From Escherichia phage EC167: 50,988 nucleotides of DNA. Both the position numbers and the translations under genes were made by a program. Positions 529-47,643 of this stretch are shown one piece after another. The stretch lies in sequence record ON185587.1; one strand, written 5' to 3'. Positions within the stretch are counted from its first letter, which is position 1. Every line of letters begins with the position of its first letter. The notes below the pieces were generated by a model, which was given only the letters and a program-made list of their open reading frames with translations, did not search any database and was not told where the DNA came from.

Positions 529-2096
529 TGATCATATGGGAAGATTTGACGGCGGCGCAAAAGCGAGCCATTAAAGAAATCAGCGAGCATTCATTCGAAA
601 AGATGATCAGAATCTGGTTCCAATTGTTGCAGGGGCAAAAATTCCAGAGCAACTGGCATTTTAGCTTATTGTGCAGTGAGGTAGAGAAGATCATCAATGG
701 AGAGTCGCAGAATGTGATTTTCAACATTACGCCAGGTAGCGGTAAGACTGAGATTTTCTCGATCCACATGTCACCATACGCGTCATTGAAAAGCCGGAAG
801 GTGAGAAACCTTAACCTTTCGTTTAGTGATGGCCTTGTCCAGCAAAACAGCAACCGGATAAAGGAGATTATTGGTTCTCCTGAGTGGCAAGAGCTATGGC
901 CTGGAAAACTGGCAAAGGCGAGCGCTAAAGATCTGATAGTCACCGAAGGCGGAAAGGTTAAATTGCAAGTTAACTCACGTTCTATTGGCGGACAGGTAAC
1001 AGGTTTGCGTGGCGGCTATATGGACGATGGTTTTACTGGTATGCTTGTTCTTGACGATCCAGACAAGCCGGATGACATGCTTTCTAAGGTCAAGCGTGAG
1101 GCTATCCACATGCGGTTAAAAAACACGGTGCGATCGCGTCGAATGAAAGACACCACGCCGATTGTTATGGTGCAACAGCGACTACACGTTAATGATTCCA
1201 CCTGGTTTATGCTTAATGGCGGGATGGGTGGTATTGAGTTTAAAGTTGTGAGTATTCCGGCGCTGGTTACGAAAGAATACCGCGAAACGCTTCCTGATTG
1301 GTTGAAGCCTGAATTTGATCGTGATGTTCTGTCAAGTAAGCCAGTGATGATAGATGGCGTCGCTCATTATTCATTTTGGCCTGCGAAGGAAAGCGCGGAG
1401 GAGTTGCTTGCATTGCGCAATGCAGATCCTTACACGTTCGCCAGCCAATACCAACAGCAACCCATCGCGCTTGGCGGGAACGTGTTTAAAACAGAGTGGT
1501 TCCAGTATTACGGCAGCGGCGAAAAGTGCGCACTACCAAAACCGGATCGCTTTGAATACACATTTATTACTGGAGATACCGCGCAGAAGGCCGGAGAGCT
1601 TAACGACTATTCGGTTTTTTGTTATTGGGGGATGTATAAGAATCGCGTTTACTTCATTGATGGCATTCGCGGAAAGTGGGAAGCGCCTGATCTTGAATTA
1701 AATTTTATTGCCTTCGTTAACCAGTGTTGGAAGCGCAATAAAGAGTGTGGCAGCTTGCGACGTATCCACATTGAGGATAAGGCCAGCGGCACGGGCTTGA
1801 TTCAGGGGGCCAAAAAGAAGATACCGATTGATATAAATCCCGTTCAGCGAAGCAACGACAAGGTAACGCGAGCAATGGACGCCGCTCCAGTAATGAGGGC
1901 CGGACGTGTGGCACTGCCAGAAAATCACCCAATGCTGCCTGAGATACTGGCAGAGGTTGCAGCATTCACTTTTGATGATTCTCATCCCCATGATGATATT
2001 GTCGATAATATAGTTGATGCTGTTAACGTCGAAATGAACTTGGCAGATGATCCGGTGGCAAGGATGAAAAAGCTGGCAGGTCTACGCAATAAATAG
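528..2096 (+). CDS. terL: terminase large subunit (ATPase + nuclease)
   Basis: 522 aa; P-loop-like TPGSGKTE, Walker B-like LVLDDPD, acidic C-terminal nuclease-like region; position before portal. Confidence 0.85.
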   Translation: MIIWEDLTAAQKRAIKEISEHSFEKMIRIWFQLLQGQKFQSNWHFSLLCSEVEKIINGESQNVIFNITPGSGKTEIFSIHMSPYASLKSRKVRNLNLSFSDGLVQQNSNRIKEIIGSPEWQELWPGKLAKASAKDLIVTEGGKVKLQVNSRSIGGQVTGLRGGYMDDGFTGMLVLDDPDKPDDMLSKVKREAIHMRLKNTVRSRRMKDTTPIVMVQQRLHVNDSTWFMLNGGMGGIEFKVVSIPALVTKEYRETLPDWLKPEFDRDVLSSKPVMIDGVAHYSFWPAKESAEELLALRNADPYTFASQYQQQPIALGGNVFKTEWFQYYGSGEKCALPKPDRFEYTFITGDTAQKAGELNDYSVFCYWGMYKNRVYFIDGIRGKWEAPDLELNFIAFVNQCWKRNKECGSLRRIHIEDKASGTGLIQGAKKKIPIDINPVQRSNDKVTRAMDAAPVMRAGRVALPENHPMLPEILAEVAAFTFDDSHPHDDIVDNIVDAVNVEMNLADDPVARMKKLAGLRNK

Positions 2097-2112
2097 CACT
2101 AATTGCTAAAAA
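2092..2112 (+). promoter_or_regulatory. conserved intergenic motif, variant (AATAGCACTAATTGCTAAAAA), followed by TATATAAT
   Basis: Member of the 18-copy motif family; TAG stop of terL lies inside the motif. Confidence 0.4.
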
Positions 2113-2124
2113 GTTATATAATCA

Positions 2125-21386: not shown

Positions 21387-21881
21387 TACTCCTTAGTTGT
21401 TGTTGGCTGTAACTATACACGATCCGGCAAGCCGAGTTTAGCAAAAAGTGCTACTTGTTATTTTTTGTTTTCCAGCGTTATCGAATTTAAGACGGCGCAA
21501 ATTTAGCGCAAATTTTAGACAACATAAGAGCAATAAACAATCAATAAAATAGATACATACATATAAAATCAATAGTTTATTTATTTATGTATGTATATTT
21601 GTTTTTTCTTGTTATCTGTGTTTCTTGTGGTTTTGGTTGTTTGTGGTGATTTTTCTTTCTGAGTATCTGCATGTGCCATCATTCATGTGTATGTATATAA
21701 TCCTGCGTATCTGAGAGAACAAGGGAACAAGAAAAATAACACATGTTAATCATTAACTTACATGTCAGATTTGTTTTCTTGCCATCTGAGAACGTTTAGG
21801 AAACAGAAAAAACAAAACAACTATTGACTAAATCAACCAAATGGCTACAATGCACACACAAAGCAACAAGGAGCATCAAAG
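21387..21881. promoter_or_regulatory. AT-rich non-coding control region 1 (divergent promoters, inverted and tandem repeats)
   Basis: 495 bp without credible ORF; 13-bp inverted repeat TACATACATATAA/TTATGTATGTA, tandem GCGCAAATTT x2, IHF-like AATCAATAGTTTA, GGGAACAAGAAAAA box, TTGACT-17-TACAAT promoter for exo-erf-ssb. Confidence 0.6.
21436..21455 (-). promoter_or_regulatory. conserved intergenic motif variant upstream of Cor-like operon
   Basis: Minus strand reads AGTAGCACTTTTTGCTAAAC followed by GTATAGT. Confidence 0.45.
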
Positions 21882-22998: not shown

Positions 22999-23667
<669 letters not shown>

Positions 23668-23671
23668 TAAA

Positions 23672-23693
23672 CGGGGCGCTTGCGCCCCTTTTG
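23672..23693 (+). terminator. intrinsic terminator-like hairpin
   Basis: GGGGCGC-TT-GCGCCCC followed by TTTT. Confidence 0.5.
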
Positions 23694-23710
23694 TCATAGG
23701 AGAAAACAAA

Positions 23711-24163
23711 ATGCACGTTATTACAGGTGAGATCCGAAAAGAGCCAAAAGTAAAGCAAATGCCTAACGGCAGCACGCTATATGTTGTTGAGCTTTCCGAG
23801 CGATACAAAGACCGAGAGGGAAATTGGCAGTATACAAACTATGTGTTTTTCTTTAACGCGAAAACAGACGGCCTGAATGGTTGGTATGCTGAGGCTTTCC
23901 AGGTAGGCAAGGTTATTTCTGTTTCCTGCGATACATTGCGTGTTGAAACGCGAGAATACAACGGAAAGATTTACAGTACCGTACAGCCTGGCGGATTTGC
24001 AAACCTGCTATTTAGCCAGCGCGGAGAAAGCCAGCAACAATATCAGCAGCGAACGCAAGGAGGCTGGGGGCAACCACAACAGCAACAGCAACAAAATACT
24101 CAACAGCATCCTCAGCAAAGCAATCAGCCTCCGATTGACTTTGACGACGATATACCATTCTGA
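23711..24163 (+). CDS. ssb: single-stranded DNA-binding protein
   Basis: OB-fold-like N-terminus, Gln/Gly-rich linker, acidic C-terminal tail DFDDDIPF typical of SSB; start at ATG 23711 with AGGAG RBS. Confidence 0.8.
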   Translation: MHVITGEIRKEPKVKQMPNGSTLYVVELSERYKDREGNWQYTNYVFFFNAKTDGLNGWYAEAFQVGKVISVSCDTLRVETREYNGKIYSTVQPGGFANLLFSQRGESQQQYQQRTQGGWGQPQQQQQQNTQQHPQQSNQPPIDFDDDIPF

Positions 24164-27020: not shown

Positions 27021-27950
27021 TTATAGCAGTGATTCGGGCTTGTAGAGTTTTCTTTCTACGCCCTGTTTAAAATTATCGTTAACAGGCATCATTATGTCAA
27101 GACCTCTTTCCTCTGCCGCGATTATCACATCACGATCATCTTTCCGGCAGACTACGCGCATTCTTCTTTCTCCTTTATATCTATGCGCAACCATTTCAAG
27201 ATTTGAAGGAGTAAAGCAAGCCCACACTTCTTGACCAGTTGATAAATGAACATGCTGGGAATCAACCCAATCAAGGCACAAATAGATCGTCTTATCTGTG
27301 CTACCTGTTTTAACAACAGATCCGCGCGTGTAGTCGCGAGCTAAAAACCAATCCTTTCCATCCTCATCAATGAAAAGCACGTTACACATTTCATCATCCA
27401 GCCCGTCATCATGCACCAGGTGACAAGATAGCGCGTGAATGTATCGACCATCCTTGACGCCGCAATCATAATGACAATCTTCCGGCGGATATATCCCCTC
27501 ATAAACGCTTAAAGGTGTGCGATCGAATTTTAATGTTTTTGCCATCACTTTTTCGCAACATTCATGACTTGCCTGTTTCCCGAACGAGTAACCAGAAGAA
27601 CGCGAAGCGCGTTTGTTTGCTCTGATCCTGTAATCTTGTGGCACTTTTCCGAGGAAGCGGCCCAAAATGTTGATGGCCTCGCTGTAAGGTTCGCCAGTTA
27701 ATTTCATTAACCAACCGATCCCCGTGTCGTTGCCGCATACGTTGCAGATCGCGCCGCCGTCGCCATCTTCATTTAGCTTATCAGTCCATCTAAAACGATC
27801 CTTACCGCCGCAGTGTGGGCAAGGTTGATGCTTTTTGTTGAAAACATCGCTATGCAGTCCGCAAATGCTTTGTAGTGCTTCACGCCATAACCCATTCATA
27901 TATGGCAAAACATCTTCTTTCTGATAGGTCATAAAGTTTTCAGTATTCAT
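27021..27950 (-). CDS. DNA primase (zinc-ribbon + TOPRIM-like)
   Basis: CPHCGG..CNVCG zinc ribbon near N-terminus, acidic TOPRIM-like C-terminal half; start at ATG 27950 with GAGG RBS (ORF-track start 28028 crosses a terminator). Confidence 0.65.
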   Translation of the reverse strand: MNTENFMTYQKEDVLPYMNGLWREALQSICGLHSDVFNKKHQPCPHCGGKDRFRWTDKLNEDGDGGAICNVCGNDTGIGWLMKLTGEPYSEAINILGRFLGKVPQDYRIRANKRASRSSGYSFGKQASHECCEKVMAKTLKFDRTPLSVYEGIYPPEDCHYDCGVKDGRYIHALSCHLVHDDGLDDEMCNVLFIDEDGKDWFLARDYTRGSVVKTGSTDKTIYLCLDWVDSQHVHLSTGQEVWACFTPSNLEMVAHRYKGERRMRVVCRKDDRDVIIAAEERGLDIMMPVNDNFKQGVERKLYKPESLL

Positions 27951-27961
27951 GGCAAACCTCA

Positions 27962-27999
27962 ATAAAAAAGCCCAGCAAATATTATCATTTCGCTGGGCC
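27962..27999 (-). terminator. terminator between HTH gene and primase
   Basis: Minus strand: GCCCAGC-15 nt loop-GCTGGGC followed by TTTTTTATT. Confidence 0.5.
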
Positions 28000-28005
28000 T
28001 TATCA

Positions 28006-28482
28006 TTAGCTATTCGTGCTGTTATCACCTTTGTAGAATCGTCCTCCTGGTTCGTAGTCTGAATTTTTGACTACGCGCAACATTTCGTATTTGTCGCAAC
28101 GGGTAGTAAGAGGCTTGCCGTTAGAATCAAACCGCAGATCTGGACGACAAAATGATGCGCGGTATCCTTTGCACCCATTATATTTGTAGTCGTTATGCAC
28201 CTTTTGTGCTCCAGCGGCTGAAATCATGCCACGCTTTCGCCACTGGTTAACGACTTGCTGAGATACGCGTAGACGTCGAGCCATAGCAGGAACACCGCCG
28301 TAATACTCGATCAGAATGTCAAGGCGAGATTTCAGGCTTGCTTTTACCTCATCTCGCAGGATAAGAAATCCGGTTCGGTGTTTTCGTGGCTTTTTGTCTT
28401 TACCTCGTCGCGTTCCGTTGTTACCGTTAATAGTGCGCTTGTCGATCTCACCCGTAGACACTGCAATTCGTGCATCTTTCAT
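28006..28482 (-). CDS. DNA-binding protein with Cro/YdaS-like helix-turn-helix and C-terminal Cys-rich region
   Basis: 158 aa; basic N-terminus, GGVPAMARRLRVSQQVVNQWRKRG HTH-like segment, four Cys in C-terminal 50 aa. Confidence 0.45.
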   Translation of the reverse strand: MKDARIAVSTGEIDKRTINGNNGTRRGKDKKPRKHRTGFLILRDEVKASLKSRLDILIEYYGGVPAMARRLRVSQQVVNQWRKRGMISAAGAQKVHNDYKYNGCKGYRASFCRPDLRFDSNGKPLTTRCDKYEMLRVVKNSDYEPGGRFYKGDNSTNS

Positions 28483-30567: not shown

Positions 30568-30986
30568 TGGCTATAACTGATAAAGGCGATTATCTTGAGT
30601 TTTACGAAAGGGATCCAACCGACACGAGAAGGGAAGTTAATCACCAGATAGATAGTTTTCAGTGGTTGACTTATGCTCATCCTTATTTGCTGGCGTGGCA
30701 TACGGTAAACGAGAATGAGAAGTCTAAAGCAACGGCGATGATTGATCAGCAGTCCGGCTTGGTTAAGGGAGTAAGCGATTTCATCATCCTGATTGGTTTA
30801 AACGGAAAATACCCCTTTGCAGCGATTGAGATCAAACGAGTGAATAAATCAGGCAAGGGGAAAGCATCACCAGTCAGCGATGAACAAAAGGCTTTTTTGC
30901 GTCGAGTTCGCAGCTTAGGAGGATTCGCTGCGGTCGCCTACGGATTTAATCAGTTTAAGTTGGCTATTGAATACATGCTTAAATAG
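30567..30986 (+). CDS. VRR-NUC domain nuclease
   Basis: 139 aa; PD-(D/E)XK-like GVSDFIIL...AIEIK motif; overlaps helicase stop. Confidence 0.55.
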   Translation: MAITDKGDYLEFYERDPTDTRREVNHQIDSFQWLTYAHPYLLAWHTVNENEKSKATAMIDQQSGLVKGVSDFIILIGLNGKYPFAAIEIKRVNKSGKGKASPVSDEQKAFLRRVRSLGGFAAVAYGFNQFKLAIEYMLK

Positions 30987-31002
30987 CACTTTTTGTTAAA
31001 AC
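30982..31002 (+). promoter_or_regulatory. conserved intergenic motif + GC dyad + CATAAT upstream of dam
   Basis: AATAGCACTTTTTGTTAAAAC, dyad GGCGCGATGGATTGCGCC, CATAATT; TAG stop of upstream gene inside motif. Confidence 0.5.
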
Positions 31003-31065
31003 TGGCGCGATGGATTGCGCCATAATTCAATAATACGAGATAGCTTTTAATAGCGGAGAAATGAA

Positions 31066-35476: not shown

Positions 35477-35492
35477 TGCCTCCTTTATTTTT
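35462..35492. terminator. bidirectional terminator between lysis cassette and minus-strand operon
   Basis: AGGAGGC-TTAAT-GCCTCCT flanked by A/T tracts on both sides. Confidence 0.65.
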
Positions 35493-35715
35493 ATGCGTCG
35501 GGCCACATATGAGTTTCGTTTGTTGGCTTGTTCGATTCGTCGTACTGCCTTACTTCAATGCTGCAAGTGTCGCCATACATTTCTGCAATCTTGCGCTCAT
35601 TTTCAACCGCAGATTGCTCACTCCATCCAAAATCCCTGTCGTAAATTGTCGGGATTTCAGCAGAAGATCCGTTGTCATGATTATATACGCGAACTACTAA
35701 AAACTTGCTGGACAT
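35491..35715 (-). CDS. hypothetical protein
   Basis: 74 aa; own motif-type promoter at 35776 and RBS. Confidence 0.45.
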   Translation of the reverse strand: MSSKFLVVRVYNHDNGSSAEIPTIYDRDFGWSEQSAVENERKIAEMYGDTCSIEVRQYDESNKPTNETHMWPDA

Positions 35716-35775
35716 AATTTTACCTTTTGGTTGTTTCGTTTCGATGAAACAAATATACCCGACACTAGGCCTGGC

Positions 35776-35796
35776 GTTTTAACAAAAAATGCTATT
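35776..35796 (-). promoter_or_regulatory. conserved intergenic motif (minus orientation)
   Basis: Minus strand: AATAGCATTTTTTGTTAAAAC + dyad + TATATT. Confidence 0.5.
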
Positions 35797-35912
35797 CCAT
35801 ACGCTTTACCGTAACCAGTAATACACCATCATCATTGCATAAAACATGTTCAGTGGTGCTAAAAGCGCGCATATCTGAATAAAGTAGCGTAAGTAAAGCA
35901 TGAATAAAATCC

Positions 35913-36308
35913 TCATGTGATATTGAATTTACGGCGCAGTGCTTCAAGATCTTGTCTATTAGCTTTTGCCTGGAACAACTCATCATCGCCCATCTCCCCT
36001 ATTCTAGCCATATCCCTGATCCAGACGTTGCGCATACCATCCAGGCTATACAATTCGAATCCGAAAGGCCGCTTTGACGATCCTTTGGACCAGTATTTTC
36101 CGCAGACCCCATCTATATAACCAGCCGTCATCATTCTTGCGCAAAATTCCTTAGATGCAAGGCTGGCGAACATTCTCGGCGTAAGTCCGGCGGCCCGTGC
36201 GAGCCGCTCACATTCTCTATGCTGATAGATAAATTTGGCTATGTGCTGCCTGTTAAACCAGTCGTATGACTCACACCATTTATACAGATCAAGCAAAAAC
36301 ATAATCAT
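35913..36308 (-). CDS. hypothetical protein translationally coupled to DUF3987-like NTPase
   Basis: 131 aa; start ATG overlaps upstream stop (ATGA). Confidence 0.45.
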   Translation of the reverse strand: MIMFLLDLYKWCESYDWFNRQHIAKFIYQHRECERLARAAGLTPRMFASLASKEFCARMMTAGYIDGVCGKYWSKGSSKRPFGFELYSLDGMRNVWIRDMARIGEMGDDELFQAKANRQDLEALRRKFNIT

Positions 36309-37885
36309 CCCAGCAGTATTGGATTGACAAAAATAACACCATTAATCACACAAACATAATTTCTTTCTTCCAGCATTGGCAGCAAGTGCCCTTCTATCCT
36401 CTTCATTACGCCAGCCTGACCAACGAAAGGTTTTACCTTTCTCGCTGATTCGTACAGGGCGCGAATATTCAGGATCCCTTTGTTCGCCTTGCCGTGCCTC
36501 GTGATCAATTCAATCAATTTACCCATTTCAGCATCATCACCAGCATAACCAGAAGCATTGGCGGCGCTAATGTATGTTTTGCTCAATTCCTGAAACATGA
36601 TCAACGCCTCTTGCATTGTTTCCACGTCGATCTCTTTCGACTTCTGCGGGTATCCGGCAGGATTAAACCAGTTGCGGATAACATGCAGGACGGAAGCAAG
36701 CCTGATCACCTGTTTATCCATTTTACCCAGCGCACCGCGTAACATTGTATGAGAATACTTTCCGCCGTCTGCAAGATGCGGTTCCATATCCTGGCGAGCA
36801 ATGTTGAGCACTCGCATAGCTGAACGGCTTATTTTCAGCGATATATTTGATTCGCTCATGATGTTATGCACCAATTGATAATATTGGGCCTTCAATTCAG
36901 GATCCACCGCCTCATAGGTAGAATCACCATTTTCATCAATGAATGAGCGACGGCCTAAGAATGATTCCTCACGGACCAACAAAAAGCGCTCACTCACACC
37001 GATACCGCGCGATCCAGCGTCCATGATTCCGCTTATCGTTTCATCCTGGGCTATAACGCTCATACATCCAAGTGCGCGAAAACTCATGTTATTGTCAGCA
37101 TTAGCGCGGGCAATTGATACGTGACCATTATCCCACGCCTTAAGCACTAGCTCACTGTTAGTCTTCCTTTCGCTATTGGCATAGGTCAAGCCTAACAGGC
37201 TGTTAATACTTGTTGCTTCGTCAGATATTACGGCAAAGTTACCTTGCTTGTTGTTGATTTTCGCCAAGCCTTCTGGAGTGGTATCTGAAACAGGGAAAGT
37301 TATATCACACATCTTTTCCAGCTTCTCCTCCAGATCCTCTTTTTCCTGGTATAGAGATTCCATATCAGCGCCTGATCTTTCGCTTTTCATCTCCTTTGCA
37401 AGACCTGCCAACTTTGCCTGTATTTTCTTTCTTTCCTTGCGGCGTTGCTCGTTGATCTTCTCAACTTCCGCAATCATCGGAGCAATAGCCATGCTGTTGA
37501 TCGCAGATTTACCAGTTGACGGCGGCTGGCTTGTAACGACGTAAAGCGCAGTCGGCTGATCGGTTCCGTGATAGTCAACTGTAAAGCGTCCAAGCATAGC
37601 GGCAGAAATGCAGCCGATAAAGTGCATGTAAGCCGATGATTCAGGGAATTGAACTGATCGCGAAATGCTGCGTGATAACTTGCCGACAACATCAATATCA
37701 TTACCAAGAGAAATTACGGGGTAGCGATCGTGACCGCTATTTACATCCTTTACGTCGCCCCAAAAGCTGGACGACTGGCGATAGCCGTTAGCCTGAATTG
37801 ATACGCGAACTGGCGAAAGGTTCTGGCTTTCAGCCATAGCGATTATTTGCTGTGGAGTTAATTTGTTCGTTTCTAATGAAAACAT
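36305..37885 (-). CDS. P-loop NTPase, DUF3987 / replicative-helicase-like
   Basis: 526 aa; deviant Walker A TSQPPSTGKSAI, Walker B FAVISDEAT; strong RBS AAGGAG; family assignment from memory of motif, not searched. Confidence 0.4.
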   Translation of the reverse strand: MFSLETNKLTPQQIIAMAESQNLSPVRVSIQANGYRQSSSFWGDVKDVNSGHDRYPVISLGNDIDVVGKLSRSISRSVQFPESSAYMHFIGCISAAMLGRFTVDYHGTDQPTALYVVTSQPPSTGKSAINSMAIAPMIAEVEKINEQRRKERKKIQAKLAGLAKEMKSERSGADMESLYQEKEDLEEKLEKMCDITFPVSDTTPEGLAKINNKQGNFAVISDEATSINSLLGLTYANSERKTNSELVLKAWDNGHVSIARANADNNMSFRALGCMSVIAQDETISGIMDAGSRGIGVSERFLLVREESFLGRRSFIDENGDSTYEAVDPELKAQYYQLVHNIMSESNISLKISRSAMRVLNIARQDMEPHLADGGKYSHTMLRGALGKMDKQVIRLASVLHVIRNWFNPAGYPQKSKEIDVETMQEALIMFQELSKTYISAANASGYAGDDAEMGKLIELITRHGKANKGILNIRALYESARKVKPFVGQAGVMKRIEGHLLPMLEERNYVCVINGVIFVNPILLG

Positions 37886-37937
37886 TCGTTAGCTTCTCCT
37901 TTGTGGGCCGTAAATTTTAACGGCCCAATACTACCCC

Positions 37938-37958
37938 GTTTTGTCAAAAAGTGCTATT
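37938..37958 (-). promoter_or_regulatory. conserved intergenic motif variant (TTGACA form)
   Basis: Minus strand: AATAGCACTTTTTGACAAAAC + dyad GGGCCG..CGGCCC. Confidence 0.5.
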
Positions 37959-38175
37959 TGATCCGCTCTATTGCAACCAGAAGTCGATCAGGCTGGCGGT
38001 CGCTGTAGCATTCTCCTGTAATCCCATCCTTAAACGTAAAGTAAAGCGCCTTATGATATGAAAAACCAATCAGCCAACCTACCGCAGTTTTTTTGATGGG
38101 CCTGACTATATCGCCAGGCTTGAAGGTTTTTGTTGCTGAATTAGTAACCTTATAGCGATATTCAGTCTTGATCAT
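37954..38175 (-). CDS. hypothetical protein
   Basis: 73 aa from ATG overlapping HNH stop (ATGATCAAGACTGA); stop TAG inside motif. Confidence 0.4.
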   Translation of the reverse strand: MIKTEYRYKVTNSATKTFKPGDIVRPIKKTAVGWLIGFSYHKALYFTFKDGITGECYSDRQPDRLLVAIERIK

Positions 38176-38683
38176 AAGGCTTCTCGCTTCCGTGGTTTTC
38201 GTGGAATCCGTACTTTTTCCAAATAGCATCTCTTGATGATACAGCGCTATCAATTGATGCATGATAACCACCAGAAATACACCTGCCATCAACAGTTACT
38301 TGTACGCACCATTTAGACACCCTCTTATTCAACATCACGCCAGTATAACCAGATTTATTTGTCGATCTCCTTGTGTGGTTTTGTGAGTTTTGTTTTCTTG
38401 TGACAAGCCGAAGGTTTTCGATTCTATTGTCATCTCTTATGTGATTCACGTGATCTATCTCCATTCCTTTTGGTATTGTTTTTCCATGCATCCACCAAAC
38501 AATCCAATGCGCCGGATACTCTCTGCCACCAATACCTATACGTCTATATCCGTTTTTAGTTATATAACCTGCCTCATCGCCAATTTTTGCCCGTCTTCCT
38601 GATGGGCTTTTCCATAATAGACGACCATTTTCATATATAAATAAATTTAGAAGTACTTGCCTTGAAATTCCGCTATTGCACAT
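38162..38683 (-). CDS. HNH homing endonuclease with AP2 domain
   Basis: HNH motif (HWIVWWMHG..IDHVNH..DNR..NLR) and AP2-like SGYTGV segment. Confidence 0.7.
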   Translation of the reverse strand: MCNSGISRQVLLNLFIYENGRLLWKSPSGRRAKIGDEAGYITKNGYRRIGIGGREYPAHWIVWWMHGKTIPKGMEIDHVNHIRDDNRIENLRLVTRKQNSQNHTRRSTNKSGYTGVMLNKRVSKWCVQVTVDGRCISGGYHASIDSAVSSRDAIWKKYGFHENHGSEKPYDQD

Positions 38684-38874
38684 TTAAATCCAACCTCGCA
38701 TCTTTCAAGAGTCCATTGCTCACCTTGAGCATCAACAACGTAACCAGCTACAGCGCCTAAAACCCTTCCCATAATTATCTCATAGCGTTTACCTTCCTTA
38801 AAATGCTGACCTGGCTTTACGCTGTTCATGTGGTGGTAAACTTTTGTGCATTTTATTGTTCTCTTCTTTGTCAT
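38647..38874 (-). CDS. small protein, paralogue family member A
   Basis: 75 aa; RBS AAGGAG; N-terminal K-C-x-x-x-Y...KPG motif shared with 40884 and 44932 genes. Confidence 0.5.
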   Translation of the reverse strand: MTKKRTIKCTKVYHHMNSVKPGQHFKEGKRYEIIMGRVLGAVAGYVVDAQGEQWTLERCEVGFKCAIAEFQGKYF

Positions 38875-38929
38875 CGTTTATTTCTCCTTTCGTTTCGGTG
38901 AAGTGATTATGCAAGGTTTTTACATCTGG

Positions 38930-38950
38930 CTTTTAACAAAAAGTGCTATT
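38930..38950 (-). promoter_or_regulatory. conserved intergenic motif (minus orientation)
   Basis: Minus strand: AATAGCACTTTTTGTTAAAAG ... GCATAAT. Confidence 0.5.
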
Positions 38951-41787: not shown

Positions 41788-42458
41788 TGCTATCTCCTGA
41801 TCGGTTCGTTTTGATGTGTGTAATGTACCCGATCAGGTGGCCTGAGTTTTAACAAAAAGTGCTATTTGACGGTTAGCGCCAGGATTGCGATCGAAATAAT
41901 CATAAGTAATCATTCGTAATCAAATCACGTCAAAATGATGATTGCCTTTGCAAATTTGATGAGAAAAGCAATCACGTTTAATCATTGGTTGCAGGGGAGA
42001 TAGTGAAACCTTCCCCTCTCGCCTCACTTTTTTGCCTGGCTGTCAGTGGTTGTTATGTTCCGTTCCTGCGTGTTCTTTTGTTGACCTTCCGCAAAATACG
42101 ATAACAAAAAATAACAAACAATACCTATATAATACATTGAAAAATAAGGATTATTTATTTATATGTATCTATATATTCTCTTTTGTTATCTTGGTTATTG
42201 TGGTATTTGGTGGGGGTATATAGTTTTTGTGTATCTGTATGTGTGTATGGGTATGTAGGGGTATATATATCTATATGGCGCTTTCCGCGAGAAAACTTCG
42301 ATAACAAGCAATGATAACATTGATTTATAAGGAAAAATAACGCCTATATTGTTATTGTGCCACCATATAAAATTGATAAAACACGCGGGAACAAGAAAAA
42401 ACAGTTGACACATTAAATAGCATTATTGATAATGCCCACACCTAACAACCAGGAGGCA
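41788..42458. promoter_or_regulatory. AT-rich non-coding control region 2 (divergent promoters, iterons, dyads)
   Basis: 671 bp without credible ORF; TAATCAT repeats phased at 10 bp (41897, 41907, 41917) plus further copies; hairpin + U-tract at about 42003-42045; GT-rich repeats homologous to region 1; GGGAACAAGAAAAA box; TTGACA-17-GATAAT promoter for early genes. Confidence 0.6.
41846..41866 (-). promoter_or_regulatory. conserved intergenic motif (minus orientation)
   Basis: Minus strand: AATAGCACTTTTTGTTAAAAC upstream of 41787 gene. Confidence 0.5.
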
Positions 42459-42926: not shown

Positions 42927-43194
42927 AAAGGCGTTAATCGGTGTTTTGGTGGCAATGGCATTCCTGACCGGGTGCAAAGAAGATGGCGCGCATGTTGGCA
43001 ATGTGCAGATGGCTAACCCTGGCGATGACTACAGCGTAAGGGAGCTATTCACCGCTGACGGTTGCACCGTTTACCGATTCTATGACGGTCGCACTGTTTA
43101 CTTCACCAACTGCAAGGGCGCTACTAGCTGGGAAGTGTCGAAAAGCAATGGCAAAGGCACGAAGACAGAACATATGACCGTCGAGGCAAAATAG
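42916..43194 (+). CDS. small lipoprotein
   Basis: 92 aa; signal peptide with lipobox (AFLTG-C); four Cys in mature part. Confidence 0.5.
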   Translation: MNNEKALIGVLVAMAFLTGCKEDGAHVGNVQMANPGDDYSVRELFTADGCTVYRFYDGRTVYFTNCKGATSWEVSKSNGKGTKTEHMTVEAK

Positions 43195-43210
43195 CACTTT
43201 TTGTTAAAAC
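43190..43210 (+). promoter_or_regulatory. conserved intergenic motif + dyad GCCAGGTGCAAAGCCTGGC + CATAAT
   Basis: Canonical copy; TAG stop of lipoprotein gene inside motif. Confidence 0.5.
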
Positions 43211-43266
43211 GCCAGGTGCAAAGCCTGGCATAATAGCCTCATCGAAACGAGATTGAGGAAACAAAA

Positions 43267-43751: not shown

Positions 43752-44633
43752 ATGTTAAAACTTACTGACATTAAATTCCCGATCACCTTCGAATCTCGCG
43801 GCGTTGGTCATTTCATGTTTACCGACGAGAAGACATGCACTAAGTTTAACGAATACGGAAGTCCAAACGCTTCAACAATGGAGATTGAACACTTCATTGA
43901 AGCGCACAATAAACAATACAACTCACTCAGAGACTACGGTTACGCAATGCCAGGCTACACCTGTTTCCACTACAAGCCATATAAAGGCCAGGTGTTGCCA
44001 GTGCGATCACCGGAACGCGCAGAGATTCCGATGGTCGAGATGAAAACATGCGACTATAAAAAGCTGTGGTGCTTAAGTCTGGACAATATCAAGTATCCGA
44101 TCGTATTCCGCGCGGATGGTAACTCAACGATTCGCTATACGTCACCAGACAACGGCGTTTATAGCGACGGTCAGAAATCAGAGCTTAAGGTTGATTTCTT
44201 TGTCAACGGTCACAATAGACACAATCCGCACAACGAAAAAGATAAAGTGTATTACGTGGAAGATATTACAAAACACTTGTTTGGCGACGCTCCAATTGGC
44301 GGCGGTAAGCCATATTTTGCGCAGGCGATAGATAACGCTGCCAGACGCATTGGTGAGCAGATTCACAGTCAAACAATCAAGGCGTCTGTTCTTGTTGCGC
44401 AAGATGTCGTAAGTAAGAGCGCCATTGAAGACATGCCAGTTGCCGCCACGTTAAAAGGCGTTCAGCTTGATGATGGTGTGTGGTTTGAAGTAACGGCTAC
44501 ACCAAAGACGATCGAGATTCATGATGACGTTGTTATTCTTCTGCTTCACTACGGCGGCTATAAAAACCGGACTGTTGCGGGTGAGATCAGCATCAAGCGC
44601 GGAACGATGGTTAAGTGGAAGGTGAAGATTTGA
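43752..44633 (+). CDS. hypothetical early protein with internal tandem domain duplication
   Basis: 293 aa; residues ~4-80 and ~110-190 share pattern (IKFPITFESRG / IKYPIVFRADG); RBS AGGAGAAAG. Confidence 0.45.
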   Translation: MLKLTDIKFPITFESRGVGHFMFTDEKTCTKFNEYGSPNASTMEIEHFIEAHNKQYNSLRDYGYAMPGYTCFHYKPYKGQVLPVRSPERAEIPMVEMKTCDYKKLWCLSLDNIKYPIVFRADGNSTIRYTSPDNGVYSDGQKSELKVDFFVNGHNRHNPHNEKDKVYYVEDITKHLFGDAPIGGGKPYFAQAIDNAARRIGEQIHSQTIKASVLVAQDVVSKSAIEDMPVAATLKGVQLDDGVWFEVTATPKTIEIHDDVVILLLHYGGYKNRTVAGEISIKRGTMVKWKVKI

Positions 44634-46982: not shown

Positions 46983-47573
46983 ATGAAACGAGACATTATT
47001 ATCCTTAATGGGCCGCCTGGCTGTGGAAAGGACACTATTGCAGCTTACCTAACGGGCCATCGTTACCCAGCGGTTAAGGCATCATTCAAGCAACCTATGT
47101 TCGACATTGCTTTTTCTATGCTTGGCCCGACTCGATACGATGAATTTATGGACCTGTACAACGACAGAGAGCAAAAAGAAAATCCTCAAGTTATCTTAGG
47201 CGGCAAGTCACCTCGACAATTCATGATCTGGATTAGCGAGGATGTAATGAAGCCAGTTTTTGGGGATCACTATTTCGGGCGTCGAATGGTTGAAGAGATT
47301 CACGATATGTACCGAGATTTGGCGGTTGTGATCAGTGATGGCGGATTCCCCGAAGAAATCAAGCCGATTGTTAATGCAGGGCATGAAGTGCATATTTGCC
47401 GATTGCATCGCGACGGCTTCACGTTTGCTGGCGATTCGCGAAACTATATTGACCTGAGCGGTTATCACTATCGAATCCATCACTATGATTTCCACTTGCA
47501 GGACGGCAAGCAGGAACTTGCTGTAAACGAGATCGTCAATACTGTCAAATGGAAACACACACAGATTAAATAG
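46983..47573 (+). CDS. P-loop nucleotide kinase (dNMP kinase-like)
   Basis: Walker A GPPGCGKDT at N-terminus; size ~196 aa; resembles phage deoxynucleoside monophosphate kinases by motif only. Confidence 0.5.
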   Translation: MKRDIIILNGPPGCGKDTIAAYLTGHRYPAVKASFKQPMFDIAFSMLGPTRYDEFMDLYNDREQKENPQVILGGKSPRQFMIWISEDVMKPVFGDHYFGRRMVEEIHDMYRDLAVVISDGGFPEEIKPIVNAGHEVHICRLHRDGFTFAGDSRNYIDLSGYHYRIHHYDFHLQDGKQELAVNEIVNTVKWKHTQIK

Positions 47574-47589
47574 CACGAATTGCTAAACG
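47569..47589 (+). promoter_or_regulatory. conserved intergenic motif variant + dyad GCGGGG..CCCCGC + TATAAT
   Basis: AATAGCACGAATTGCTAAACG; TAG stop of kinase gene inside motif. Confidence 0.5.
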
Positions 47590-47643
47590 CGGGGTTATCG
47601 GCCCCGCTATAATGCTCACATCAACAAGCAATAGGAAATCGCA

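What the first reader, a model, noticed from the sequence alone, without database searches (positions are those of the whole stretch)
35913..37958. Translationally coupled operon of a DUF3987-like P-loop NTPase and a 131-aa partner
A 526-aa protein with a deviant Walker A (TSQPPSTGKS) and Walker B (VISDEAT) is expressed from its own motif-type promoter and is coupled through an ATGA overlap to a 131-aa protein of unknown function. The phage already encodes a separate primase and a DEAH helicase, so this NTPase is either the actual replicative helicase or initiator, or an accessory ATPase of another function.
Basis: partly seen in the sequence, partly recalled or inferred. Interest (0 to 1): 0.5.

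Follow-up and report, generated by a model that had tools for sequence, protein, structure and literature searches.

The report
T1-type phage MCM-like helicase operon
This is the conserved helicase gene of T1-like phages, an MCM-like ATPase of the DUF3987 family already annotated as "DNA helicase", followed by a small winged-helix partner and a third overlapping gene; the helicase is ordinary, and only the partner's role is unknown.

Summary
A 526-aa ORF (36305-37885, minus strand) and a 131-aa ORF (35913-36308, minus strand) overlap by ATGA. The quoted Walker A and B strings are present and nearly invariant in homologues.

The window is a Warwickvirus (Drexlerviridae, T1-like), 99% identical here to phage FritzSarasin. 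The pair are the orthologues of T1 ST9 ("DNA helicase") and ST10.

The partner is a basic winged-helix protein with a conserved acidic D-D/E-E/Q-L-F motif. It is confined to T1-like phages and lay directly downstream of the helicase gene in 79 of 80 loci.

- The ATGA overlap is lineage-specific; the conserved start is probably the second ATG.
- The unit has a third, overlapping 64-aa gene.
- The "motif promoter" is a published T1-like repeat of unproven function.

Verdict: known kind, low novelty. The partner's function remains open.

The parts
37939..37959 (-). Copy of the T1-like 21-nt repeat (aaATAGCACtttTTGaCAAAA). Its TAG (37954-37956) is the stop codon of the upstream ORF. It contains TTGACA at 37942-37947.
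   Evidence: The same repeat was described for phage TLS in PMC11447400.
37914..37919 (-). -10-like hexamer TAAAAT, 18 nt after the repeat (the same offset as CATAAT/TATAAT in other copies) and 22 nt after TTGACA.
   Evidence: Sequence, aligned with the other copies. The generic sigma-70 scan did not call it.
37904..37927 (-). Inverted repeat GGGCCGT-N7-ACGGCCC that encloses the -10-like hexamer. It would form a stable hairpin in read-through RNA.
   Evidence: I14; centroid structure, z -1.9.
36305..37885 (-). 526-aa DUF3987 / MCM-like AAA+ (SF6) helicase, the orthologue of T1 ST9. An SD-like GGAG lies at 37896-37899.
37505..37528 (-). Walker A, QPPSTGKS (residues 120-127). All positions are invariant in 38 homologues except T124, which is T, S or A.
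37217..37231 (-). Walker B, VISDE (residues 219-223). E223 is invariant.
36986..36988 (-). R300 in the motif S-E-R-F, directly before strand beta5. Candidate arginine finger, resembling the MCM 'SRF' motif.
36308..36538 (-). C-terminal winged-helix domain of the helicase (residues about 450-526, pI 9.25).
   Evidence: phrog_7327 match to residues 441-525; many winged-helix hits.
35913..36308 (-). 131-aa partner (129 aa if started at 36302), the orthologue of T1 ST10, phrog_2794. It has an N-terminal helix, a winged helix (residues about 20-75, nt 36084-36251) and C-terminal helices.
35973..35987 (-). Conserved acidic-hydrophobic motif D-D-E-L-F (residues 108-112). The tail after it is variable across lineages.
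   Evidence: the codons vary synonymously between lineages.
35792..35986 (-). Third gene of the unit, 64 aa, phrog_9539. Its ATG lies inside the D-D-E codons of the partner, and its stop is the TAG of the next repeat copy.
   Evidence: Annotated in FritzSarasin as bas04_0044.
35777..35797 (-). Next copy of the 21-nt repeat. It marks the end of this unit and the start of the next one (74-aa ORF 35491..35715).

Best explanation
A short minus-strand transcription unit of a Warwickvirus (T1-like phage) encodes three genes.

1. **The helicase.** This is the phage's own hexameric-type replicative helicase, an MCM-like AAA+ ATPase of the DUF3987 family (superfamily 6). It has an N-terminal helical domain, a long coiled-coil hairpin after the P-loop, a pre-sensor-1 beta-hairpin, an arginine finger and a C-terminal winged helix.
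2. **The partner.** This is a small basic winged-helix protein carrying an acidic D-D/E-E/Q-L-F motif. Its start lies within 4 nt of the helicase stop.
3. **A third gene.** It encodes a 64-aa protein of unknown function and overlaps the partner's 3' end.

The phage has no DNA polymerase or DnaB-type helicase gene. The inferred mechanism is that the DUF3987 helicase unwinds the fork for the host polymerase, working with the phage Zn-ribbon/DnaG-type primase and the phage SSB. The winged-helix partner would be a stoichiometric accessory subunit that helps place the helicase on DNA or links it to another replisome component through its acidic motif.

**Shown:** the fold, the motifs, family membership, conserved gene order and spacing, and the taxonomic range.

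**Inferred:** the replicative role, hexamer formation, translational coupling, and every functional statement about the partner.
For: **Family.**
- Pfam DUF3987, E 5.9e-44, 151 bits against a cut-off of 27.
- PHROG 2373 'DNA helicase', E 8e-244.

**Fold.**
- The AF2 model has pLDDT 89 and pTM 0.87.

**Motifs.** Walker A and B, R260 in the pre-sensor-1 hairpin, IAQDE, SER300F and R383 are invariant or nearly so in 38 homologues.

**Context.**
- This is the only hexameric-helicase candidate in the window.
- The other helicase is SF2 (ResIII/Helicase_C) and is followed by a VRR-NUC nuclease.
- The primase lacks a helicase domain.
- In relatives of 36-39% identity, the DUF3987 gene heads or adjoins the replication module. 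In L088 the order is DUF3987, DnaG-type primase, SF2 helicase, exonuclease. In L087 it is DUF3987, SF2 helicase and, further on, exonuclease, AAA_24 and SSB. In Vi II-E1 and pIS4-A it lies next to the primase.

**Literature.**
- DUF3987 proteins were predicted to be SF6 replicative helicases of phages with a C-terminal wHTH (PMC4889955).
- A PriCT-DUF3987 protein is a 5'-3' helicase that depends on its Walker A and B motifs (PMC11724360).

**Partner.**
- pI 9.1.
- It lies immediately downstream on the same strand in 79 of 80 loci, with spacing -4 to +4 nt in 70. The same order holds in T1 and in Klebsiella phage Sushi.
- The DDELF motif is kept through synonymous codon changes, and in the 111-aa versions it lies one residue from the C-terminus.
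- The junction RNA is unstructured.
Against: - I found no genetic or biochemical data for any T1-like DUF3987 protein or its partner.
- In T1-like phages the gene lies about 8 kb from the primase and SF2 helicase cluster. One T1-family paper treats the SF2 helicase plus the primase as the likely initiators and does not discuss this gene (PMC11447400).
- No sequence-level match to Pfam MCM was listed at E <= 1, and none to any PDB chain.
- The partner's winged helix is generic, so the fold alone does not separate a helicase accessory from a transcription factor.
- No complex prediction could be run.
- No iterons were found in or next to the operon.
Confidence: 0.65

Rival explanations
1. The DUF3987 ATPase is an accessory motor, for example in recombination-dependent replication, repair or fork restart. 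The true fork helicase would then be the SF2 DEAH helicase next to the primase, or host DnaB.
For: - The SF2 helicase is adjacent to, and divergent from, the primase in T1-like genomes.
- The TLS paper proposes that pair as the initiators.
- The DUF3987 gene sits among small early genes far from the primase.
Against: - The SF2 helicase is followed by a VRR-NUC nuclease. From general knowledge, that pairing is typical of recombination or fork processing.
- The DUF3987 protein has the complete ring-helicase AAA+ motif set and an MCM-like fold.
- In distant relatives it is directly coupled to a DnaG-type primase.
- A family member is a proven helicase that binds its primase.
Confidence: 0.15
2. 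The 131-aa winged-helix protein is mainly a transcription factor that binds the ATAGCAC...TTGnTAAAA repeat and activates or represses the 18 or so motif-preceded units. Its position next to the helicase gene would then be a matter of timing, not of complex formation.
For: - The fold is a basic winged helix.
- Both the protein family and the repeat are found in Drexlerviridae and are absent from the five non-Drexlerviridae DUF3987 loci.
- The motif units have a -10-like hexamer but no properly spaced -35 (22-nt gap), as in activator-dependent promoters.
Against: - Near-zero spacing to the helicase gene in 70 of 79 loci points to equimolar co-production.
- The phage has a separate Cro/YdaS-like HTH regulator next to the primase.
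- A shared taxonomic range is expected for any Drexlerviridae-specific feature.
- No binding test was possible.
Confidence: 0.15
3. The pair is an anti-defence or host-takeover module unrelated to replication.
For: - Early-region location among small unknown genes.
- A nearby gene family (the 128-aa protein of SECphi27) triggers Mokosh type I.
Against: - The Mokosh trigger is a different protein.
- The conserved AAA+ helicase machinery and the primase synteny point to replication.
Confidence: 0.03

Closest known systems
DUF3987 (PF13148) helicases, e.g. [quoted passage not shown]
   Same: - Same Pfam family, with a full-length match.
- Walker A and B present.
- C-terminal winged helix.
- Association with primases in phage and mobile-element replication modules.
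   Different: - There is no PriCT or AEP domain. The N-terminus is a small helical domain.
- The primase here is a separate Zn-ribbon/DnaG-type protein encoded about 8 kb away.
- A dedicated winged-helix partner gene follows the helicase only in T1-like phages.
Archaeal and eukaryotic MCM helicases (PF00493)
   Same: - AAA+ core with a pre-sensor-1 hairpin, an S-x-R-F arginine-finger motif and a C-terminal winged helix.
- The deviant Walker A (xxPSTxKS) resembles the MCM GDPxxxKS motif; this comparison is from memory.
   Different: - No sequence-level Pfam MCM match.
- No N-terminal OB/Zn domain.
- A long coiled-coil insertion after the P-loop.
- The characterised DUF3987 member translocates 5'-3', whereas MCM translocates 3'-5'.
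Self-loading MCM-like helicases of staphylococcal elements (SCCmec Cch/Cch2, SaPI Rep; PMC9371898, PMC7581432)
   Same: - MCM-like AAA+ helicases of mobile elements that replicate with host polymerase.
- They are encoded in operons with small accessory proteins.
   Different: - They belong to a different family (DUF927 type).
- Their origin binding is built into the helicase.
- They have no homologue of the 131-aa partner.
T1 ST9/ST10 and the same pair in about 830-920 sequenced Drexlerviridae genomes
   Same: They are orthologues. T1 ST9 is 58% identical to the window helicase and ST10 is 53% identical to the partner. The order is the same and the spacing is 4 nt.
   Different: - In T1 an HNH endonuclease and another gene precede ST9, with no motif directly upstream.
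- T1 has no ATGA overlap.
- The third overlapping ORF is not annotated in the T1 RefSeq record.

Membership tests
DUF3987 (PF13148) | Score above the Pfam gathering threshold over most of the model | tested here: met
   151.2 bits against a cut-off of 27; residues 81-430 match model positions 3-350 of 364.
DUF3987 (PF13148) | [quoted passage not shown] | tested here: met
   QPPS[TSA]GKS and hhS(D/A)E, with K126 and E223 invariant in 38 sequences.
DUF3987 (PF13148) | [quoted passage not shown] | tested here: met
   [not shown]
DUF3987 (PF13148) | Association with a primase, either fused or encoded by a neighbouring gene | tested here: inconclusive
   Not adjacent in this window; the primase is at 27021..28028. 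It is adjacent in relatives of 35-39% identity.
DUF3987 (PF13148) | ATP-dependent DNA unwinding | not testable with these tools
   Shown only for AgaPH (PMC11724360).
MCM family (PF00493) / AAA+ pre-sensor-1 hairpin clade | Sequence match to the MCM profile | tested here: not met
   PF00493 is not listed at E <= 1. No PDB MCM chain was found by phmmer or hmmsearch.
MCM family (PF00493) / AAA+ pre-sensor-1 hairpin clade | MCM-like AAA+ fold with sensor-1, arginine finger and pre-sensor-1 beta-hairpin | tested here: met
   - Hairpin at 255-270 before strand 273-279.
- SER300F before strand 301-305.
MCM family (PF00493) / AAA+ pre-sensor-1 hairpin clade | N-terminal OB-fold/Zn domain | tested here: not met
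   In the model, residues 1-100 are helical or coil only.
Winged-helix DNA-binding proteins (partner) | H-H-H core followed by a beta-hairpin wing | tested here: met
   [not shown]
Winged-helix DNA-binding proteins (partner) | Demonstrated nucleic-acid binding | not testable with these tools
   The only indirect support is the basic pI of 9.2 for residues 1-85 and conserved arginines at 20, 35, 45, 58 and 80.
Translationally coupled gene pair | Stop and start overlap or lie within a few nt, conserved across relatives | tested here: met
   ATGA here. Spacing is -4 to +4 nt in 70 of 79 loci. The junction RNA is unstructured. Actual reinitiation was not tested.
Sigma-70 promoter | -35 and -10 hexamers 16-18 nt apart | tested here: not met
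   TTGACA and TAAAAT are 22 nt apart. The generic scan did not call it.

The most novel reading that the evidence does not exclude
The 131-aa winged-helix protein would be a previously unrecognised, Drexlerviridae-specific helicase co-factor. It would act as a Cdt1-like or adaptor subunit, docking on the MCM-like helicase and using its acidic D-D/E-E/Q-L-F tail (loosely like an SSB C-terminal tip) to recruit a host or phage replisome component. That would explain how a phage with an MCM-type helicase plugs into the bacterial Pol III replisome. The 64-aa gene that starts inside the motif's codons could be a third component.
Probability: 0.25. Interest if true: 0.5.

Novelty: already known. Interest (0 to 1): 0.22.

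Why it matters
**Helicase.** The helicase assignment only confirms existing annotation. T1-like phages carry a DUF3987, MCM-like helicase alongside a DnaG-type primase and rely on host polymerase. It is useful to state this clearly because a recent T1-family paper still discusses the SF2 helicase as the likely replication helicase.

**Open part.** The partner is modest but real. It is a winged-helix protein confined to this phage family, always coupled to the helicase gene, and carries a conserved acidic tail motif. It is a concrete and cheap target for pull-down, multimer prediction and deletion. Results could show how an archaeal/eukaryotic-type helicase is loaded and connected to a bacterial replisome.

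Tried and rejected
- **PDB sequence searches.** Single-sequence and profile searches for both proteins gave nothing significant.
- **NCBIfam.** No hit for either protein.
- **Partner versus helicase profile.** The profile-profile comparison tested for duplication of the helicase's own winged helix. It was not significant.
- **Exhaustive HMMER search with the partner profile.** Against 1.84 billion representatives it found only 22, with no remote relatives or fusions.
- **Foldseek against viral models.** It returned only T1-like homologues.
- **AFDB50 library.** Unavailable.
- **Mokosh type I trigger.** I tested whether the partner is the 128-aa SECphi27 protein that triggers Mokosh type I. It is not; that protein is encoded by a different gene.
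- **Small ORFs next to distant DUF3987 genes.** None is homologous to the partner.
- **Iterons.** None found in or beside the operon. TAATCAT is enriched window-wide (23 copies against 11 expected), but its only cluster is at 41897-41985, outside this finding.
- **GC skew.** It follows the direction of transcription and gives no origin signal.
- **Classical T1 genetics.** Literature searches for genes 1 and 2 and for host dna gene requirements found nothing in the held library.
- **Beta-clamp motif.** I considered D-D-E-L-F as a beta-clamp-binding motif and rejected it, because the Q/L positions of the QLxLF consensus (recalled from memory) are not matched.
Full report
**1. Observation**

The two ORFs exist as described. 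ORF 36305..37885 (-) encodes 526 aa and ORF 35913..36308 (-) encodes 131 aa. The plus strand at 36305-36308 reads TCAT, so on the coding strand the partner's ATG overlaps the helicase's TGA as ATGA.

The strings TSQPPSTGKS (residues 118-127) and VISDEAT (residues 219-225) are both present. In an alignment of 38 homologues with 36-87% identity to the window protein:
- Q120, P121, P122, S123, G125, K126 and S127 are invariant.
- S221 and E223 are invariant.
- D222 is D in 33 sequences and A in 5.

**2. Where the window comes from**

The segment is 99% identical to Escherichia phage FritzSarasin (Drexlerviridae, Tempevirinae, Warwickvirus). There the two genes are bas04_0046, "putative helicase", and bas04_0045, "hypothetical protein".

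In phage T1 the orthologues are ST9 ("DNA helicase", 522 aa) and ST10 (135 aa). They have the same order and are 4 nt apart. tblastn finds the helicase in 925 phage records and the partner in 834, nearly all of them Drexlerviridae.

**3. The 526-aa protein**

*Family and fold*
- It matches Pfam DUF3987 with E 5.9e-44 (151 bits, cut-off 27) over residues 81-430.
- It matches PHROG 2373, "DNA helicase", with E 8e-244.
- It has no sequence-level match in the PDB.
- An AlphaFold2 model built on the 38-sequence alignment is confident (pLDDT 89, pTM 0.87).

*Reading the model together with the conservation*
- Strand beta1 at residues 115-119 precedes the P-loop QPPSTGKS.
- The P-loop helix is extended into a coiled-coil hairpin (126-191).
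- Walker B lies at the end of strand 217-221, with E223 invariant.
- A beta-hairpin at 255-270 carries invariant R260. It sits directly before strand 273-279, which ends in IAQDE. This is the position of a pre-sensor-1 hairpin and sensor 1.
- Invariant S-E-R300-F lies directly before strand 301-305. This is the position and form of the MCM "SRF" arginine finger.
- A helical lid contains invariant R383, a candidate sensor 2.
- A basic C-terminal winged helix spans about residues 450-526 (pI 9.25).

The assignment of sensor and finger roles is my inference from AAA+ topology.

*Literature*
- Kazlauskas et al. 2016 linked DUF3987 to MCM and superfamily 6. They noted the C-terminal wHTH and the association with AEP or DnaG primases, and predicted that these proteins are phage replicative helicases (PMC4889955).
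- In 2025 a PriCT-DUF3987 protein (AgaPH) was shown to be an oligomeric, ATP-dependent 5'-3' helicase that binds its primase-polymerase. Walker A and B mutants were inactive (PMC11724360).

**4. Is it the replicative helicase?**

*Gene inventory of the window*
- A Zn-ribbon (primase-helicase type) primase without a helicase domain.
- A Cro/YdaS-like regulator.
- An SF2 ResIII/Helicase_C helicase followed by a VRR-NUC nuclease.
- Erf, a PD-(D/E)XK exonuclease, and an SSB.
- An Mre11-like exonuclease, methyltransferases and kinases.
- No DNA polymerase and no DnaB-like or SF3 helicase.

The DUF3987 protein is therefore the only ring-helicase candidate.

*Genomic context in relatives of 35-39% identity*
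- In L088 the order is DUF3987, DnaG-type primase (3 nt downstream), SF2 helicase, then a DUF3799 exonuclease.
- In L087 the order is DUF3987, SF2 helicase and, further on, the exonuclease, AAA_24 and SSB.
- In Salmonella phage Vi II-E1 and Aeromonas phage pIS4-A the gene adjoins the primase.

This supports a replication role by association.

*Evidence against*
- I found no experiment on a T1-like phage.
- The 2024 TLS paper discusses the SF2 helicase plus the primase as possible initiators and does not mention this gene.

I put the replicative-helicase reading at about 0.7.

**5. The 131-aa partner**

*What it is*
- It matches PHROG 2794 (unknown function) and has no Pfam, NCBIfam or PDB match.
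- Its annotation as "YdbL" in some records has no support in my searches.
- The AF2 model (pLDDT 88) shows an N-terminal helix, a classic winged helix (helices 20-29, 33-39 and 44-62, wing 65-74) and short C-terminal helices.
- The winged-helix part is basic (pI 9.2).
- A profile search of 1.84 billion representative proteins found only 22 representatives, so the family is confined to T1-like phages. Foldseek against viral models agrees.

*Gene order*
- In 79 of 80 IMG/VR loci that encode a partner homologue, the DUF3987 gene lies directly upstream on the same strand. The one exception is cut by a contig end.
- Spacing is -4 to +4 nt in 70 of the 79.
- The ATGA overlap occurs only in the three Warwickvirus-like loci.
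- Most homologues start MF(L/I)LD, so the conserved start here is probably the second ATG (36302), 2 nt after the TGA. A GGGTAA to GGATGA change is enough to create the upstream ATG.
- The junction RNA is less structured than shuffled controls.
- Translational coupling is therefore plausible and conserved in kind, but it has not been demonstrated.

*The conserved motif*

S/T-D-D/E-E/Q-L-F (residues 107-112) stands out. It is kept despite synonymous codon variation. In the 111-aa versions it lies one residue from the C-terminus. In other lineages the tail after it varies freely from 1 to 43 residues.

**6. A third gene**

In most lineages the ATG of a conserved 63-67-aa ORF lies inside the D-D/E codons (GATGAT/GATGAA). 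This ORF overlaps the variable tail of the partner by 17-146 nt.

Here it is 35792..35986 (-), 64 aa, phrog_9539. Its stop is the TAG of the next repeat copy. FritzSarasin annotates it; the T1 RefSeq record does not. The unit therefore has three genes. The functional C-terminus of the partner is effectively the acidic motif.

**7. The "motif-type promoter"**

*Architecture*
- The window holds about 18 good copies of ATAGCACnnnTTGnTAAAA.
- The copy upstream of the helicase gene (37939-37959, minus strand) has TTGACA in place of TTGTTA.
- A -10-like TAAAAT follows 18 nt after the repeat, the same offset as CATAAT or TATAAT in other copies.
- The helicase ATG lies 51 nt after the repeat. In most other copies this distance is 51-62 nt.

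This fixed architecture supports a promoter-type element.

*Caveats*
- TTGxxA lies 22 nt from the -10-like hexamer, which is not a canonical sigma-70 spacing. The generic scan did not call it.
- The same 21-nt repeat was already reported for phage TLS (21 copies), with its function left open (stoperator, enhancer or UP-like; PMC11447400).

*Conservation*
- A repeat copy at this distance upstream of the helicase gene is conserved in many loci from several lineages.
- It is not conserved in T1 or Webervirus, where the helicase gene lies inside a longer unit.

**8. How it most likely works**

*Shown*
- An MCM-like DUF3987 AAA+ protein with a complete catalytic motif set.
- A basic winged-helix partner with an acidic motif.
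- Conserved order and spacing.
- A taxonomic range limited to T1-like phages.

*Inferred*
- The helicase forms a ring and unwinds the phage fork for host polymerase.
- The phage primase and SSB complete a minimal replisome. The phage SSB ends in DFDDDIPF, the same tip as E. coli SSB (the comparison with E. coli is from general knowledge).
- The partner is made with the helicase and acts as a DNA-binding or adaptor subunit in loading or replisome coupling.

*Rivals*
- An accessory role for the ATPase (0.15).
- The partner as a transcription factor for the repeat (0.15).
- An anti-defence module (0.03).

I checked a tempting link to the SECphi27 128-aa Mokosh type I trigger and rejected it. That protein is encoded by a different gene.

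**9. Novelty and score**

The helicase gene is already annotated in hundreds of genomes. Its family has been analysed in print, and one member has been characterised biochemically. The window is 99% identical to a deposited phage. The finding is therefore already known and of low interest (0.22).

The residual open item is the partner and the overlapping third gene. To my knowledge no function has been proposed for either. The most novel reading my evidence allows is a family-specific helicase co-factor that links an MCM-type helicase to a bacterial replisome. I give it a probability of 0.25 and an interest of 0.5 if true.

Noticed in passing
window, 18 copies, e.g. 2093-2113(+), 30983-31003(+), 35775-35795(-), 37937-37957(-), 38929-38949(-), 43191-43211(+), 47570-47590(+): The repeat ATAGCACnnnTTGnTAAAA has a rigid architecture. 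A -10-like hexamer follows 18 nt after it, and the next start codon lies 51-62 nt after it in most copies. Its TAG serves as the stop codon of the upstream ORF in at least 8 copies. The TTGxxA to -10 spacing is 22 nt, which suggests an activator-dependent or otherwise non-canonical promoter. The repeat is published for TLS, but its function is unproven.
   Followed up: partly
window 35792-35986 (-); T1 record NC_005833 about 43993-44193 (-): A conserved 63-67-aa ORF (phrog_9539) starts inside the D-D/E codons of the partner's DDELF motif and overprints the partner's variable tail. It is not annotated in the T1 RefSeq record.
   Followed up: partly
window 38175-38880: This stretch differs from FritzSarasin. 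It holds an HNH endonuclease gene (38162..38683, minus strand). It also holds a 75-aa ORF (38647..38874, minus strand) that is 45% identical to the C-terminal part of the SECphi27 128-aa protein reported to trigger Mokosh type I. This version may be shortened or replaced.
   Followed up: partly
window 41870-42420: The intergenic region between the divergent early units is AT-rich and packed with short repeats. These include TAATCAT three times at 41897-41985, GATAACAA-type repeats and TATCTATAT-type repeats. A related T-rich block lies at 21577-21656. It is a candidate origin or regulatory region. GC skew gives no origin signal.
   Followed up: partly
window 23660-24163 (+): The phage SSB ends in DFDDDIPF, the same tip as E. 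coli SSB. It can presumably use the host's SSB-interaction network.
   Followed up: no
L088 5001-9123; L087 5001-8483; L003; L004: In non-Drexlerviridae phages with a DUF3987 helicase of 35-39% identity, the gene heads an operon of the type DUF3987, DnaG-type primase, SF2 helicase, exonuclease. The same gene set is split between two genome regions in T1-like phages. A small unrelated ORF sits directly upstream of the helicase gene in these phages, and there is no partner homologue.
   Followed up: partly
window 37904-37927: A 7-bp G+C-rich inverted repeat encloses the -10-like hexamer of the helicase leader. Comparable hairpins sit between the repeat and the -10-like hexamer in other copies, where the T1 record annotates them as terminators. 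The repeat units may therefore combine terminator and promoter functions.
   Followed up: no
BFVD entries A0A6M5CCU5 and A0A6M5CB08 (Vibrio phage Vc1): Proteins annotated 'DNA primase' (529 aa) and 'Helicase' (345 aa) in Vc1 contain 55-59-aa segments 46-49% identical to the partner. These are probably frameshifted or mis-called ORFs in that record rather than true fusions.
   Followed up: no
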